Part shown: positions 3,204 through 6,694 of the stretch, one piece after another
Layout of the letters: the number at the start of each line of letters is the position of its first letter
How positions within the stretch are numbered: position 1 is the first letter of the stretch
Assembly (NCBI GenBank): GCA_021298195.1
Contig: JAJTEQ010000001.1
Coordinates: forward strand, 102,110 to 166,109
Source: Ilumatobacteraceae bacterium
Lineage (GTDB): Bacteria > Actinomycetota > Acidimicrobiia > Acidimicrobiales > Ilumatobacteraceae
DNA length: 64,000 nt
Direction: 5' to 3'
Translations under genes and position numbers: made by a program
The notes under the pieces: generated by a model
What the model saw: the letters and a program-made list of their open reading frames with translations, nothing else
Told to the model about the DNA's origin: nothing
Database searches by the model: none

Positions 3204-4238
3204 ATGTTTTTGATCTCGGGGATGAGCGACCGCGTCCCCATGTCCGAGGTGGGGGCGTACGCCAAGCGAGTCGAGGCGATGGGCTTCGACATCCTGCACG
3301 TACCCGAGACCGTTCACGACTCGATGGCGGTGTCGTTGTTGGCGCTCATGGCCACCGATCGGCTGCGGGTCCAGACCAGCCTCACCTTGGCCTTCCCCCG
3401 TAGCCCGATGCTGTTGGCCCTCCAAGCATGGGACGCGTCGGCCGCCGGCGCGGGTCGCTTCGATCTGGGTCTGGCCACGCAAATTCGACAGAACATCGAG
3501 GGTCGGTTCGGCGTTCCGTGGAGTGATCCGCTGCGACGCATGGAGGATTACGTCACGGTCGTGCGCGCCGTCTGGAGATCGTTCACCGAAGGTTCTCCCC
3601 TAAATGTGAGCACCGCGTCGTACACCCTCGATCGTTTGCAACCTTTTTTCGATCCCGGCCCGCTGGCACACGACCCGCCGACGATCCTCCTCGGCGGCGT
3701 GAACCGCGGCGCGATCGAGTTGGCCGGTCGCTGCGCCGACTGGTTCGTGACACATCCGACCAATTCGCATCCGCGATTCGTGCGCGAGTTGGCGATGCCG
3801 GCCCTCGACAGCGGTGTCGAACAGGCTCGACGTCCCGACCGGCCGCGCATCATCACCGCCTCTCCGCTCATCACCGGTCCCGACGTGGACGCCGTCGACC
3901 GAAGTCGCCAAACTCAACGCGCGGTGCTGGCGTTCCTCTACTCCACCCCCGCGTACCAGCGAACGCTCGAGCTGTTCGGGTGGCCCGAACTGGGTCCGCG
4001 ACTGCGAACCATGACGCGCAACGGTGACTGGGCGTCGCTCGGCGCGCTCATGACCGACGAGGTTCTCGACACCGTTCTGCCCACGGGAACCTGGGACCAA
4101 CTTCCCGACATCCTCGAGGGCTGGTACGGCGGTCTGGTCGACGGGCTGTTGATTCAACCGCCCGAGGATCCGTCTCTCGACGCACGATTCTCCGAGACCC
4201 TGCGGGCCATCGGATCGATCCGGCCGCGGCTCGACTGA
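3204..4238 (+). CDS. LLM-class (luciferase-like) flavin/F420-dependent oxidoreductase
   Basis: In-frame ATG at 3204 inside the overcalled ORF 1950..4238. LLM-like text: AKRVEAMGFDILHVPETVHDSMAVSLLALMATDRL...FDLGLATQIRQNIEGRFG. The upstream part of the ORF is antisense to the Rieske gene. Confidence 0.75.
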   Translation: MFLISGMSDRVPMSEVGAYAKRVEAMGFDILHVPETVHDSMAVSLLALMATDRLRVQTSLTLAFPRSPMLLALQAWDASAAGAGRFDLGLATQIRQNIEGRFGVPWSDPLRRMEDYVTVVRAVWRSFTEGSPLNVSTASYTLDRLQPFFDPGPLAHDPPTILLGGVNRGAIELAGRCADWFVTHPTNSHPRFVRELAMPALDSGVEQARRPDRPRIITASPLITGPDVDAVDRSRQTQRAVLAFLYSTPAYQRTLELFGWPELGPRLRTMTRNGDWASLGALMTDEVLDTVLPTGTWDQLPDILEGWYGGLVDGLLIQPPEDPSLDARFSETLRAIGSIRPRLD

Positions 4239-4772
4239 TCAGGAGTTCGCGATCAGGTCGGCGATCAACGGCTCGAGCGACTCCCGATCCAGGCTCCCCT
4301 GCACCTTGGTCACCGAACCATTCGCATCGATGAAGACCCAGGCCGGTTGATACGGGATCCCGTAGCGAGCGAAAACATTTCCCGAGTCATCGAGAAGACT
4401 GGGGAAGGTGATCTCGTGACGTTCGATGAAGTCGCGCATGTACTCCTCCGAACCGTTCCACGCGACACCGTAAAAGTCGACCGATTCACCGTAGGTGAGG
4501 TGGGCCTCCTCGACCGAGGGGGCTTCGTTGTTGCATTGCGTTCAACCGGGCGCCCAGAACCACAAGACCACGGGACGACCCGACGACCCGACATCAGTGG
4601 TCGGATCGATGAGCAAATCCTCGCCCGCCGACACCGACGAGGAACCATCCGGAAGCACCACGGACCCGACGGTCTCCGTCGAGCCCGCGATGTCGGCCGA
4701 ATCACCACCACAGGCCGTGGCGATCACGGCGACCGCCACCACCGTCGTCAGGAACCTCGCCATCGATCGCAT
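4239..4772 (-). CDS. TlpA/DsbE(MPT53)-like thiol:disulfide oxidoreductase lipoprotein with in-frame UGA at the first redox-motif position (candidate selenoprotein, motif U-T-Q-C)
   Basis: ORFs 4542..4775 and 4239..4439 share one frame (4775-4439=336) and are separated only by TGA at 4542..4544. The joined text reads ...RPVVLWFWAPG-[TGA]-TQCNNEAPSVEEAHLTYGESVDFYGVAWNGSEEYMRDFIERHEITFPSLLDDSGNVFARYGIPYQPAWVFIDANG... This parallels the redoxin pattern WFW-x-P-W-C-x-x-C-N-x-EAP. N-terminal lipoprotein signal MARFLTTVVAVAVIATAC. No frameshift or second stop over 177 codons. Confidence 0.6.
4504..4523 (-). promoter_or_regulatory. candidate bacterial SECIS hairpin downstream of the UGA
   Basis: mRNA GCCCCCUC-GGUC-GAGGAGGC: 4 bp, one C/A mismatch, 3 bp, with a GGUC apical tetraloop. 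It starts 18 nt after the UGA, and the loop starts 26 nt after it. As I recall, the E. coli fdhF SECIS minihelix also has a GGUC loop. Confidence 0.45.
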
Positions 4773-5680
4773 CACGGCGTCACGGTAGACGGGTCCGACT
4801 GTGCCGTCGCATCGGGCGGGCGCGAGGCATTGGTGACGATGGCCACGCCCACCAGGATCACAGGCAGTGCCACGGCCATGTTGGTCGACACGCTCTCGTC
4901 ACTGAAGACGACTCCGAGCAGAACCGCGATGGCCGGATTCACGTACGCGTAACTCATCGCCAATGGGCCACTCACGTTTCCGATCAGGTACGTGAAAGCC
5001 GAGAACGCCACGATCGAGCCGAACACCACGAGGTAGCCGACCGCGAGCCCGCTTCGAAGGCTCGGTGCTTCGACCGTCTCCCGCGACACCAGCGACAGGA
5101 ACATGAAGGCCACCGCGGCGGCCCCCATCTCGATGGTCGTCGTCATCGGTCCGTCGGGCATGTCGACGCGGCGACTGAGGGCCGATCCGAAACTCCAGGA
5201 CACGCAGGCCACGAAGACGAGCGACACACCACCCCACGAACCCGACAGCCCCTCGTCGGACACCAGCACGGCCACCCCGGCCAATCCGATGAACATCCCG
5301 ACCCACTGCATCCGATTGGGCCACGACCGCCAGAGCCCGCCCCACAGGGCCATCATCATCGGCTGAATCGCGATGATCGTCGCCACCAAACCCGAGTCGA
5401 CTCCGCGATCCTCGGCCAACGTCACCATGCCGAGCCCACCGATCAGAAGCATGATCCCGATCAGGGAGGCGTTGCGCGTCTGTCGGCGACTCGGCCACGC
5501 CACTCCACGGGAGCGAAGGATCAACACCATGACGAGCGATGCCACGACGAATCGGCAACCCTGCATGAAGAACGGCGGCATCGTCTCGAGCCCGATCTTG
5601 ATGGCCAGATACGTGGAACCCCAGATCACCCACACGGCGGCCAGTGACAGCACGGTGAGGCGACCGAACGAGCGGGACAT
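4772..5680 (-). CDS. EamA/DMT-family transporter
   Basis: About 302 aa and multi-TM. EamA-like text: LAAVWVIWGSTYLAIKIGLETMPPFFMQGCRF. Only the C-terminal half of ORF 4772..6634 is credible. Start is ATG 5680, or alternatively ATG 5704. Its stop TGA (4774..4772) overlaps the ATG (4772..4770) of the redoxin gene. Confidence 0.8.
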   Translation of the reverse strand: MSRSFGRLTVLSLAAVWVIWGSTYLAIKIGLETMPPFFMQGCRFVVASLVMVLILRSRGVAWPSRRQTRNASLIGIMLLIGGLGMVTLAEDRGVDSGLVATIIAIQPMMMALWGGLWRSWPNRMQWVGMFIGLAGVAVLVSDEGLSGSWGGVSLVFVACVSWSFGSALSRRVDMPDGPMTTTIEMGAAAVAFMFLSLVSRETVEAPSLRSGLAVGYLVVFGSIVAFSAFTYLIGNVSGPLAMSYAYVNPAIAVLLGVVFSDESVSTNMAVALPVILVGVAIVTNASRPPDATAQSDPSTVTP

Positions 5681-5731
5681 GTCGACATTCTCGCCGACGA
5701 CCATGTCGGTCGGACAATCCCCGCCGATACC

Positions 5732-6694
5732 GTGTCCGTCGTGTCCGATCTCGGTGTCACGACCCCACCTCTGTGCGTGCTGGGCGACTTCGCATGGGAC
5801 GTGCTCATTCGCACCAACAGTGAACTGTTGCGCGGGGGCGACACCTTCGGAGAGGTGATGCTGACCCCGGGAGGGAGCGCGGCCAACGTCGCCGTCTGGG
5901 CCAGCCGTTGCGGAACCCCGACGCGATTCGTCGGCAAGATCGGTCGCGATCGTTTCGGCCAATTGGCGCAGGAGGACCTCGAACGCGAGCACGTCGTGGC
6001 GCACCTCGTGGAGACCGAAGCGCACTCCACCGGTTCGGTCGCGGTGTTCGTGGATCACACGGGGCAACGCTCGATGGTCTCGGGTCACGGAGCCGACTTC
6101 TACCTCATGCCCTCGGAGTTGCCCGTCGATGCCATCTCGTCGGCGCGCCACCTGCACCTCACCGCGTGGTCGTTCTTCACCGACCCGCCACGCTCGGCCG
6201 CCCGGGCGGCGGCTCGCACCGCCCGCGCGAGTGGGGCGACGGTTTCTTTCGATCCCGGCTCGTTCCAGATGATCATGGAGATGGGAGTGCCCGCCTTCCT
6301 GGCGGCGTGTGCCGATCTCGAGTTCGACATCGTCCTTCCCAACAAGGAGGAGGGCCAGGTGCTCACGGGCGAGACCTCCGCCGACGCCATCGTCGAGGGG
6401 CTCACCAAGATCTTCCCGGGCGCCCTCGTCGTGTTGAAACTCGATGCCGATGGCGCACTCGTGCACGACGGTCGGATCAGCACCCACATTCCGCCGGCGA
6501 CGAACAATCTGGTCGATGCCACCGGCGCCGGTGATTCCTTCGCCGGCGCATTCCTCTCCCACCATCTCGCCTCGAACTCCCCCATCGACGCCGCGCGCTT
6601 CGCGACTCGCGTCTCGGCCTGGGTGATCGAGCACATCGGGGCGCGACCGTCTCCCGACGGTCGCCTACGAACGCTCTTGTCGTCTCCCCGTTGA
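5732..6694 (+). CDS. PfkB-family carbohydrate kinase (ribokinase-like)
   Basis: LTPGGSAANVAVWASRCG near the N-terminus and DATGAGDSFAGAF near the C-terminus (PfkB signature 2). GTG start at 5732. Confidence 0.85.
   Translation: MSVVSDLGVTTPPLCVLGDFAWDVLIRTNSELLRGGDTFGEVMLTPGGSAANVAVWASRCGTPTRFVGKIGRDRFGQLAQEDLEREHVVAHLVETEAHSTGSVAVFVDHTGQRSMVSGHGADFYLMPSELPVDAISSARHLHLTAWSFFTDPPRSAARAAARTARASGATVSFDPGSFQMIMEMGVPAFLAACADLEFDIVLPNKEEGQVLTGETSADAIVEGLTKIFPGALVVLKLDADGALVHDGRISTHIPPATNNLVDATGAGDSFAGAFLSHHLASNSPIDAARFATRVSAWVIEHIGARPSPDGRLRTLLSSPR

What the first reader, a model, noticed from the sequence alone, without database searches (positions are those of the whole stretch)
4504..4544. fdhF-like GGUC-tetraloop hairpin at SECIS distance from the in-frame UGA
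Downstream of the UGA the mRNA reads ACGCAAUGCAACAACGAA-GCCCCCUC-GGUC-GAGGAGGC. This forms a 7-bp stem with one C/A mismatch, capped by GGUC. From memory, the minimal E. coli fdhF SECIS is GGUUGCA-GGUC-UGCACC with the same loop, and bacterial SECIS models allow roughly 16 to 37 nt from the UGA to the apical loop with G at the start of the loop. Here the loop begins 26 nt after the UGA. The hairpin lies inside coding sequence (E-A-P-S-V-E-E-A), as bacterial SECIS elements do.
Basis: partly seen in the sequence, partly recalled or inferred. Interest (0 to 1): 0.6.

Follow-up and report, generated by a model that had tools for sequence, protein, structure and literature searches.

The report
Selenocysteine insertion hairpin in redoxin gene
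The hairpin is a genuine bacterial selenocysteine-insertion signal inside a secreted thiol-disulfide oxidoreductase gene of a freshwater actinobacterium; this is an ordinary kind of element, here supported unusually well by comparison with related genomes.

Summary

**The gene.** Window 4775..4239 (-) encodes a 178-aa DsbE/MPT53-like redoxin. An in-frame UGA (4544..4542) replaces the first Cys of CxxC, giving WAPG-U-TQC.

**The hairpin.** Eighteen nt after the UGA lies GCCCCCUC-GGUC-GAGGAGGC (4523..4504, -10.1 kcal/mol). It meets all four bSECIS model constraints.

**Thermodynamics.** Folding of this one sequence is not distinctive (z -0.68).

**Comparison with relatives is decisive.**
- 71 of 71 UGA-bearing orthologues (41 same genus, 19 from other genera of Acidimicrobiales, 11 metagenome contigs) keep a GGUC loop at the same spacing.
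- Three stem pairs covary: CG/GC/UA/AU, CG/UA and UA/GC.
- The synonymous sites of the hairpin codons are frozen, while 23 other conserved codons vary.
- 3 Cys orthologues and 9 Cys paralogues lack the hairpin.

**Genome support.** TGA is the main stop codon here. The genome has tRNA-Sec, selD and a second UGA gene of the UGSC family.

**Caveat.** selA and selB are not in this 91%-complete MAG. At the place where three close relatives carry selA-selB, this genome has a real structural breakpoint. Sec decoding in this particular strain is therefore unproven.

**Novelty.** New member of a known kind (UxxC redoxin selenoproteins with a bSECIS).

The parts
4239..4775 (-). Selenoprotein gene. It encodes a 178-aa DsbE/MPT53/TlpA-like redoxin with a UxxC active site (U78). 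The N-terminus has a hydrophobic leader ending in A-C-G-G, which looks like a lipoprotein signal by eye. The true stop is TGA at 4241..4239.
   Evidence: Translation. Pfam: AhpC-TSA 53.6 bits, Redoxin 45.7, Thioredoxin 30.8, all above cut-off. PDB: 1LU4 at E 3.4e-21 and 3IOS at E 5.1e-21. The lipoprotein signal was judged by eye and not run through a predictor.
4542..4544 (-). In-frame UGA read as selenocysteine (U78), in the place of the first Cys of CxxC.
   Evidence: TGA is kept at this codon in 71 of 71 orthologues examined.
4545..4547 (-). Codon before the UGA (GGT, Gly). Its third base, U, is conserved.
   Evidence: GGT occurs in 40 of 40 Gly codons at this column in the genus, whereas other conserved Gly columns use 4 codons. 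The base before the UGA is T in 63, G in 7 (all Trp TGG) and C in 1 of 71. Its function is inferred, not shown.
4524..4541 (-). 18-nt spacer between the UGA and the base of the hairpin. It encodes T-Q-C-N-N-E. Its last codon is GAA with a frozen third base.
   Evidence: There are no indels in this stretch in the 60 aligned orthologues. GAA is used in 41 of 41 genus orthologues.
4516..4523 (-). 5' arm of the SECIS hairpin (GCCCCCUC).
4512..4515 (-). Apical loop GGUC.
   Evidence: Invariant in 71 of 71 UGA-bearing orthologues.
4504..4511 (-). 3' arm of the SECIS hairpin (GAGGAGGC). A at 4507 faces C at 4520 as a conserved 1x1 mismatch.
   Evidence: Pair table. The mismatch position is unpaired in 54 of 58 distinct sequences.
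4772..5740 (-). Upstream EamA/YedA-type transporter gene. Its TGA stop overlaps the redoxin start (GTGATG), so the two are probably co-transcribed. Its own start is approximate.
   Evidence: Pfam EamA 94.9 bits. NCBIfam YedA 293.3 bits against a cut-off of 270. The overlap was read. The same neighbour occurs in 25 of the 30 same-genus loci and in 0 of 19 loci from other genera.

Best explanation
The hairpin at 4523..4504 (-) is a bacterial selenocysteine insertion sequence (bSECIS). It serves the in-frame UGA at 4544..4542 of a secreted DsbE/TlpA-like thiol-disulfide oxidoreductase.

**Shown**
- The UGA replaces the catalytic N-terminal Cys of CxxC.
- The helix, its GGUC loop, a 1x1 mismatch four pairs below the loop and the 18-nt spacing are conserved across an order of Actinomycetota.
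- Stem pairs change by compensatory substitution, and synonymous sites in the hairpin codons are frozen.
- Cys-containing relatives lack the element.
- TGA is the normal stop codon in this genome.

**Inferred from the established bacterial mechanism**
- When the ribosome has UGA in the A site, the hairpin sits at the mRNA entrance.
- The C-terminal winged-helix domain of SelB binds the loop and upper stem. This delivers Sec-tRNA(Sec) (anticodon UCA) in competition with RF2.
- The peptide encoded by the hairpin (E-A-P-S-V-E-E-A) is the start of the helix that follows the active site. The RNA signal and the protein therefore constrain the same 20 nt.
- The conserved U just before the UGA may be part of the recoding context.
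For: **Anatomy**
- Sequence and frame.
- The hairpin alone folds at -10.1 kcal/mol.
- All four bSECIS model constraints quoted in PMC13188914 are met.

**Homology**
- Redoxin and AhpC-TSA domains are present.
- The UGA aligns to the first Cys of WCPFC/WCPTC in MPT53 and DsbF.

**Conservation of the UGA**
- 41 of 53 same-genus genomes have the orthologue, all with TGA there.
- In 300 other genomes of the order, 22 matched at E <= 1e-22. Of these, 19 have TGA and 3 have Cys.
- 11 of 11 metagenome loci also have TGA.

**Structure**
- RNAalifold finds the same helix.
- On 60 sequences (58 distinct): pair 39-54 is CG 41, GC 8, UA 3, AU 2, other 4. Pair 42-51 is CG 43, UA 14, other 1. Pair 43-50 is UA 44, GC 12, other 2. 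Pair 37-56 is GC 43, GU 15.
- The covariation score is 0.308 against 0.126 for shuffles (0 of 500 reach it). Slid registers give at most 0.089.
- On a tree of 71 orthologues built without the hairpin columns, these pair states need at least 9, 5 and 3 changes.

**Synonymous sites**
- Of 30 conserved degenerate codons in 41 genus orthologues, 7 use a single codon. Six of the 7 are the codon before the UGA and the hairpin codons GAA, CCC, TCG, GTC and GAG. The other 23 use 2-4 codons.

**Controls**
- The homologous 20 nt folds at a mean of -8.99 kcal/mol in 71 Sec forms, with 64 at or below -7.5. The mean is -4.93 in 3 Cys orthologues and -1.99 in 9 Cys paralogues, with none at or below -7.5 and none carrying GGUC.

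**Genetic code**
- TGA ends 712 of 810 long coding-like frames.

**Machinery**
- tRNA-Sec scores 67.5 bits and has anticodon TCA.
- selD scores 323.6 bits.
- A second UGA gene belongs to the UGSC (seleno)protein family: 167.5 bits against a cut-off of 125.
- 16 of 18 sampled same-genus genomes have selA over the cut-off and 14 of 18 have selB.
- A relative's SelB has the SelB-wing_3 domain.
Against: - The single-sequence fold is not better than shuffles (z -0.68).
- No Rfam family matches the site. Bacterial SECIS elements are said to be poorly represented in Rfam (bioRxiv 10.64898/2026.04.03.716425, passage seen).
- selA and selB were not found in this 91%-complete assembly. Contig C4 of this genome has a real breakpoint at the spot where three close relatives carry selA-selB. 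The element may therefore be idle in this strain.
- Several compensatory changes also change the amino acid (S to A together with E to A), so protein co-variation cannot be fully separated from RNA co-variation for those pairs. The CCC-to-CCU plus GAG-to-GAA change, and the GCN third-base changes, are synonymous on at least one side.
- 7 of 71 orthologues fold the 20 nt more weakly than -7.5 kcal/mol.
- There is no experimental evidence of Sec insertion.
Confidence: 0.9

Rival explanations
1. The element is a true SECIS by descent but is idle in this genome. On this reading the strain recently lost selA-selB through a replacement at the oxygenase/NfeD locus. The UGA then simply terminates a 77-aa fragment, and the hairpin, tRNA-Sec, selD and the UGSC gene are recent orphans.
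For: - selA and selB are not found by four family searches or by tblastn with a relative's proteins.
- In G009, G014 and G041 the order is selA-selB, then a 2OG-Fe(II) oxygenase, then NfeD. In G000 contig C4, homology (91-99% nt) stops about 80 codons into the oxygenase and an unrelated methyltransferase-like ORF follows.
- Contigs of 4 runs from 4 studies bridge this junction. In 3 of those runs the relatives' form is also present; its loose end matches G009 at 29 of 30 letters.
Against: - The assembly is 91% complete, holds no contig under about 4 kb, and also lacks a complete tuf gene. selA-selB could therefore lie elsewhere, unassembled.
- The UGA, the hairpin and the downstream frame are intact. 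The part after the UGA differs from G014 and G009 at only 8 and 10 of 100 codons, half of them synonymous. The part before the UGA differs at 16 of 77 codons. The counts are too small to decide.
Confidence: 0.3
2. The hairpin is a by-product of protein and codon conservation (the motif EAPSVEEA in a GC-rich genome) and has no RNA-level role.
For: - The EAP part of the motif is also conserved in Cys homologues such as MPT53 and DsbF.
- Two Cys orthologues form weak hairpins at the same place, at -5.5 and -6.1 kcal/mol.
Against: - Synonymous sites are frozen only in and next to the hairpin. Elsewhere 23 conserved codons use 2-4 codons each.
- Paired positions change together, giving 4 pair types at one pair.
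- The 9 Cys paralogues use 4 different Pro codons at the homologous site and fold at a mean of -1.99 kcal/mol.
Confidence: 0.03
3. The UGA is decoded by something other than the Sec machinery, such as near-cognate read-through or a reassigned code, with the hairpin acting as a generic read-through stimulator.
For: selA and selB are not found in this assembly.
Against: - TGA is the stop codon of 712 of 810 long frames.
- The UGA sits exactly at a redox-active Cys position.
- tRNA-Sec and selD are present, and relatives carry selA-selB.
- The hairpin fits the bSECIS model and has the fdhF-type GGUC loop.
Confidence: 0.03

Closest known systems
Enterobacterial fdhF SECIS (E. coli / Salmonella formate dehydrogenase H)
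   Same: Both are hairpins inside the coding sequence just after the UGA. Both have a 4-nt GGUC loop and an irregularity in the helix a few pairs below the loop. PMC4489274 (passage seen) states that the bulged U18 and the GGUC loop identity are important for function.
   Different: - By my reading of the sequence quoted in that paper, the fdhF loop starts 18 nt after the UGA. Here it starts 26 nt after.
- The irregularity in fdhF is a bulged U. Here it is a 1x1 C/A (or C/C) mismatch four pairs below the loop.
- The loop sits in a different codon phase.
- The host gene and the phylum differ.
- No binding or insertion test was done here.
Consensus bacterial SECIS model (bSECISearch; constraints as quoted in PMC13188914)
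   Same: All four constraints are met: loop 3-9 nt with an upper stem of at least 4 bp; G in the first two loop positions (GG); 26 nt between the UGA and the loop, within 16-37; MFE of -10.1, at or below -7.5.
   Different: The model is permissive. This family is far more tightly fixed than the model requires: an invariant GGUC loop, a fixed spacer and a conserved mismatch.
Mycobacterial DsbE (MPT53, PDB 1LU4) and DsbF (PDB 3IOS), secreted thiol-disulfide oxidoreductases
   Same: These are the best solved homologues, at E 3.4e-21 and 5.1e-21. They share the thioredoxin-like fold and the WFW-x-P-x-CxxC-N-x-EAP context.
   Different: They have Cys (WCPFC/WCPTC) where this protein has Sec (G-U-T-Q-C). 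They have no SECIS.
UxxC thioredoxin-fold selenoprotein families from marine metagenomes and recent inventories. In the GOS survey these are Trx-like, Prx-like and Prx-like 3. [quoted passage not shown]
   Same: They share the same domain families (PF00578, PF08534, COG0526-type), the same UxxC motif, and a bSECIS right after the UGA (PMC2398784 table passage; PMC13188914 table passage). A C-terminal fragment of this family sits on a GOS scaffold (P0004).
   Different: I could not retrieve the representative accessions. Identity of this DsbE-like clade with one of those listed families is therefore likely but untested.
NCBIfam NF041054, ResA-like WAxxUGC motif-containing selenoprotein
   Same: It is a ResA/TlpA-like fold with Sec in the active-site motif.
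   Different: The score is 27.8 bits against a cut-off of 300, and the motif is WAPG-U-xx-C rather than WAxxUGC. This protein is not a member.

Membership tests
Bacterial SECIS (bSECIS consensus model) | Small apical loop (3-9 nt) on an upper stem of 4-16 bp | tested here: met
   The loop is 4 nt. There are 4 pairs, then a 1x1 mismatch, then 3 more pairs. The model is as quoted in PMC13188914.
Bacterial SECIS (bSECIS consensus model) | G in one of the first two loop positions, usually followed by G or U | tested here: met
   The loop is GGUC in 71 of 71 UGA-bearing orthologues.
Bacterial SECIS (bSECIS consensus model) | [quoted passage not shown] | tested here: met
   The distance is 26 nt. 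There are no indels in the 60 aligned orthologues.
Bacterial SECIS (bSECIS consensus model) | MFE at or below -7.5 kcal/mol | tested here: met
   It is -10.1 kcal/mol here. 64 of 71 orthologues are at or below -7.5.
Bacterial SECIS (bSECIS consensus model) | Lies right after an in-frame UGA that aligns with Cys in homologues | tested here: met
   Alignment to MPT53 and DsbF. Cys orthologues L088, L092 and L102.
Bacterial SECIS (bSECIS consensus model) | Structure maintained in evolution (compensatory changes) | tested here: met
Bacterial SECIS (bSECIS consensus model) | Host genome carries selA, selB, selC and selD | tested here: inconclusive
   selC and selD were found. selA and selB were not found in the 91%-complete assembly, and there is a real breakpoint at their usual locus. 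Both are present in most same-genus genomes.
Bacterial SECIS (bSECIS consensus model) | Binds SelB and directs Sec insertion | not testable with these tools
   This needs a binding assay, a reporter assay, 75Se labelling or mass spectrometry.
TlpA/ResA/DsbE-like thiol-disulfide oxidoreductase (thioredoxin fold) | Redoxin or AhpC-TSA domain above the curated cut-off | tested here: met
   PF00578 scores 53.6 against 26. PF08534 scores 45.7 against 26.6.
TlpA/ResA/DsbE-like thiol-disulfide oxidoreductase (thioredoxin fold) | CxxC active site after the W-x-x-W/F-A-x-W context | tested here: met
   The site is present as UxxC (WFWAPG-U-TQ-C) and aligns with the motif of 1LU4 and 3IOS.
TlpA/ResA/DsbE-like thiol-disulfide oxidoreductase (thioredoxin fold) | Export signal (extracytoplasmic location) | tested here: inconclusive
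   A hydrophobic leader followed by A-C-G-G appears here, and similar Cys-containing leaders appear in the orthologues. This was judged by eye only; no signal-peptide predictor was run.
NCBIfam NF041054 WAxxUGC ResA-like selenoprotein | Score above the 300-bit cut-off and a WAxxUGC motif | tested here: not met
   The score is 27.8 bits and the motif differs.

The most novel reading that the evidence does not exclude
This strain may be a natural snapshot of the loss of selenocysteine decoding. At the locus where three close relatives carry selA-selB, it has a real replacement that truncates the neighbouring oxygenase gene. Both forms coexist in the same freshwater samples. The strain nevertheless keeps tRNA-Sec, selD and two intact UGA genes, one of them with a perfect SECIS. 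If selA-selB are truly absent, the hairpin is a freshly orphaned recoding signal. It would then allow a direct study of how selenoprotein genes decay, or convert to Cys, after the machinery is lost. A much less likely alternative is that the UGA is decoded without the canonical SelA and SelB.
Probability: 0.3. Interest if true: 0.5.

Novelty: new member of a known kind. Interest (0 to 1): 0.3.

Why it matters
**Annotation.** The gene is split or truncated at the UGA in public protein sets. Fragments there begin at M-EAPSVEEA just after the UGA. Recognising the SECIS restores a full-length secreted Sec-dependent DsbE-like oxidoreductase. It is found in 40 of 52 other same-genus genomes searched, in 19 of 300 other genomes sampled from the order Acidimicrobiales, and on 11 metagenome contigs.

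**Biology.** Selenocysteine use in the class Acidimicrobiia appeared in only one paper of the library searched, a 2026 preprint on Actinomarina. This family adds a well-supported case from the sister order.

**SECIS definition.** The alignment gives an unusually clean natural definition of one SECIS type: an invariant GGUC loop, a 4-bp upper helix, a conserved mismatch, a fixed spacer and a U before the UGA. It could serve as a seed for a covariance model.

It does not change what is known about the mechanism.

Tried and rejected
- **Rfam.** A scan of 3500..5500 at E <= 10 gave no SECIS family. The four weak matches lie elsewhere and are below gathering score.
- **Single-sequence folding statistics.** These were uninformative.
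- **Strict genome-wide scan for GGTC-loop hairpins after TGA.** It gave 14 candidates, and only the redoxin looked like protein by eye. The others were not scanned against Pfam.
- **Relaxed scan** (any G[G/U]NN loop, filtered on GC3). It gave 189 candidates. Most were adjacent genes in the same frame, so it was useless for finding more selenoproteins. It did turn up the UGSC gene.
- **Possible C-terminal Sec extension in the Cys paralogues.** They seemed to carry a conserved 'U-x-x-x-C-G-P' after their TGA. This is an artefact of an overlapping downstream gene in another frame, and that TGA is a plain stop.
- **P0002.** This database protein shows C at the Sec position and looked like a Cys orthologue with the same peptide. 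All 11 of 11 related metagenome loci carry TGA there, so it gives no Cys control.
- **Neighbourhood.** The EamA transporter and a convergent luciferase-like monooxygenase are neighbours only within the genus (25 and 21 of 49 loci). They say nothing firm about function.
- **Not run.** No structure prediction or complex prediction was run. Domain and PDB sequence matches were judged sufficient.

Full report
**What is at the site.**
- On the minus strand the window reads TGA at 4544..4542.
- An 18-nt spacer follows, then GCCCCCTC (4523..4516), GGTC (4515..4512) and GAGGAGGC (4511..4504).
- Read with TGA as U, frame 4775..4239 gives a 178-aa protein. Its active-site context is VVLWFWAPG-U-TQC-NNEAPSVEEA, and its true stop is also TGA.
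- The hairpin has 7 Watson-Crick pairs and one C/A mismatch.
- The hairpin is in the MFE and centroid folds of 4480..4550(-). That 71-nt fold is not better than shuffles (z -0.68; 47 of 200 shuffles fold as well).
- The hairpin alone folds at -10.1 kcal/mol.
- Rfam has no match at the site.

**The gene.**
- The protein matches AhpC-TSA, Redoxin and Thioredoxin domains above their cut-offs.
- Its closest solved relatives are the secreted mycobacterial oxidoreductases MPT53/DsbE (1LU4, E 3.4e-21) and DsbF (3IOS, E 5.1e-21).
- The UGA aligns with the first Cys of their WCPFC/WCPTC motif.
- The N-terminus looks like a lipoprotein leader. This is by eye and was not tested.
- The gene start overlaps the stop of an upstream EamA/YedA-type transporter gene.
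- It is not a member of the NCBIfam WAxxUGC ResA-like selenoprotein family (27.8 bits against 300).
- Near relatives found in genome contigs are titled Acidimicrobiales or Actinomycetota MAGs.

**Conservation of the UGA.**
- In the same genus, 41 of 53 genomes (own genome included) have the orthologue at 35-99% identity, each with a TGA inside the match. In all 41 the TGA is at the U position of the motif.
- In a sample of 300 other genomes of the order, 22 matched at E <= 1e-22. Of these, 19 carry TGA and 3 carry Cys.
- A database protein printed with C at this position (P0002) led to 11 metagenome loci. All 11 carry TGA.
- Public protein sets also hold fragments that begin just after the UGA (P0003, P0004). 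The gene is therefore usually mis-called.

**The hairpin is under RNA-level selection.**
- RNAalifold on 30 orthologues predicts the same helix.
- On 60 UGA-bearing orthologues (58 distinct rows), the GGTC loop and the next G are invariant and there are no indels between the UGA and the hairpin.
- Pair counts:

| Pair (alignment columns) | Pair types |
|---|---|
| 39-54 | CG 41, GC 8, UA 3, AU 2, other 4 |
| 42-51 | CG 43, UA 14, other 1 |
| 43-50 | UA 44, GC 12, other 2 |
| 37-56 | GC 43, GU 15 |
| 40-53 | unpaired in 54 of 58 (a conserved mismatch) |

- The covariation score is 0.308 against 0.126 in shuffles (0 of 500 reach it). It is at most 0.089 when the partner is slid by 1-3 columns.
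- On a quick maximum-likelihood tree of the 71 orthologues, built without the hairpin-encoded columns, the pair states at these three pairs need at least 9, 5 and 3 changes. The double changes arose repeatedly.
- In the 41 genus orthologues, 30 codon columns have a conserved amino acid with synonymous choice. Seven of them use one codon only. Six of those seven are the Gly codon before the UGA (GGT) and the hairpin codons GAA, CCC, TCG, GTC and GAG.
- The other 23 use 2-4 codons, with entropy 0.66-1.93 bits. One of the 23 is the hairpin's own Ala codon, whose third base changes only together with its partner.
- The base before the UGA is U in 63 of 71 orthologues. It is G in the 7 that have Trp there and C in 1.

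**Controls without Sec.**
- The three Cys orthologues of the order encode EAPTVRAV, EAPDVQAA and EAPTVAAA. They have no GGUC loop and fold the homologous 20 nt at -5.5, -6.1 and -3.2 kcal/mol.
- Nine Cys paralogues of the genus (FWFSACPPC...REMPA) fold it at a mean of -1.99 kcal/mol and use four different Pro codons there.
- The 71 Sec forms average -8.99 kcal/mol, with 64 at or below -7.5.
- The Cys paralogue sits directly upstream of an overlapping membrane-protein gene with an NPCGF motif. I recall this as CcdA-like but did not test it. This paralogue is the ordinary ResA-type copy.

**Genetic code and machinery.**
- TGA ends 712 of 810 long coding-like frames in the genome, so it is the normal stop codon.
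- The genome (2.39 Mb, 107 contigs, 90.9% complete) has a tRNA-Sec with anticodon TCA and selD.
- It has a second in-frame-UGA gene of the UGSC (seleno)protein family, at 167.5 bits against a cut-off of 125.
- selA and selB were not found by TIGRFAM or Pfam models, nor by tblastn with a relative's proteins.
- In the 18 sampled same-genus genomes, selA is over its cut-off in 16 and the adjacent selB in 14.
- One relative's SelB has the C-terminal SelB-wing_3 domain.

**The selA-selB locus in this strain.**
- In G009, G014 and G041 the order is selA-selB, then a 2OG-Fe(II) oxygenase, then NfeD. G014's contig begins inside the 3' end of selB.
- Own contig C4 matches these genomes at 91-99% only from position 854 rightwards. 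That covers NfeD and the first 80 or so codons of the oxygenase.
- To the left lies an unrelated methyltransferase-like ORF that runs off the contig.
- Contigs from four runs of four studies bridge this junction, so it is not an assembly chimera.
- In three of those runs a second form is present. Its loose end matches the relatives' sequence at 29 of 30 letters.
- selA-selB are therefore either elsewhere in the unassembled 9% or lost from this strain. I could not decide which.
- The part of the gene after the UGA differs from the two closest orthologues at 8 and 10 of 100 codons, half of them synonymous. The part before the UGA differs at 16 of 77 codons. This fits continued translation, but the counts are too small to prove it.

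**Comparison with what is known.**
- A 2026 review (PMC13188914, passages seen) quotes the consensus bSECIS constraints: loop 3-9 nt, upper stem 4-16 bp, G in the first two loop positions, 16-37 nt from the UGA to the loop, MFE at or below -7.5. All are met here.
- PMC4489274 (passage seen) quotes the enterobacterial fdhF SECIS and states that its bulged U18 and GGUC loop matter for function.
- Compared with fdhF, the loop here lies 8 nt further from the UGA. The helix irregularity is a 1x1 mismatch rather than a bulge.
- UxxC thioredoxin-fold selenoproteins with a bSECIS are long known from genomes and marine metagenomes (PMC1794560 and PMC2398784, passages seen). The review's table lists 'thiol-disulfide isomerase-like (cd02966, UxxC)' and 'redoxin family (PF08534, UxxC)' families. 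I could not fetch their representatives, so identity with this clade is likely but untested.
- One search for Acidimicrobi + selenocysteine + selenoprotein returned a single paper, a 2026 preprint on Actinomarina. It does not mention redoxins or thioredoxins.
- Supplements of these papers were not opened and may list this family.

**Verdict.**
- The finding is correct: this is a real bacterial SECIS serving a Sec codon in a DsbE-like redoxin.
- It is a new, well-documented member of a known kind and is not mechanistically surprising.
- The open point is whether this strain still has selA-selB.

Noticed in passing
Own genome contig C82:33875-34450 (-), outside the window (locus L103:79-651 -): A second selenoprotein gene. 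It belongs to the UGSC family (seleno)protein, NF041046, at 167.5 bits against a cut-off of 125, with an in-frame TGA at the UGSC motif. Its best downstream hairpin has a GUC loop only 11 nt after the UGA, which is closer than the 16-37 nt of the bSECIS model.
   Followed up: partly
Own genome contig C4:1-1100, outside the window (locus L116): There is a real structural breakpoint inside a 2OG-Fe(II) oxygenase gene, exactly where three close relatives carry selB-selA. A methyltransferase-like ORF replaces them. Both forms occur in the same freshwater metagenome runs (3 of the 4 laid).
   Followed up: yes
window 4545..4547 (-), and alignment A2 column 15: The base just before the Sec UGA is U in 63 of 71 orthologues. 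This includes T-ending Asn, His, Tyr, Thr and Asp codons, in genomes that otherwise favour C- or G-ending codons. It may be a recoding context effect.
   Followed up: partly
Own genome contigs C28:20000-20059 and C105:4-63, outside the window: Only the first 20 or so codons of EF-Tu-like genes are seen, at two contig ends. No full tuf gene scored in the selB family search, unlike in several relatives. This suggests assembly breaks at repeated genes, which bears on how much weight absences in this MAG can carry.
   Followed up: no
Loci L068-L076 (same-genus genomes); own paralogue at C9:44353-44694: The Cys paralogue of the redoxin (FWFSACPPC) ends in TGA and overlaps a downstream membrane-protein gene with an NPCGF motif. 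I recall that motif as CcdA-like but did not scan it. This copy is probably the housekeeping cytochrome c maturation ResA.
   Followed up: partly
window 4772..6634 (-): The 620-aa open frame is over-extended. Only residues 323-603 match the EamA/YedA transporter, so the real gene is about 300 codons long.
   Followed up: partly
rows G002:C29:19947-20306, G042:C123:579-920, G062:C5:52411-52752: Three more distant redoxin paralogues (25-31% identity) in same-genus genomes also carry one in-frame TGA. They may be further Sec-containing redoxins.
   Followed up: no
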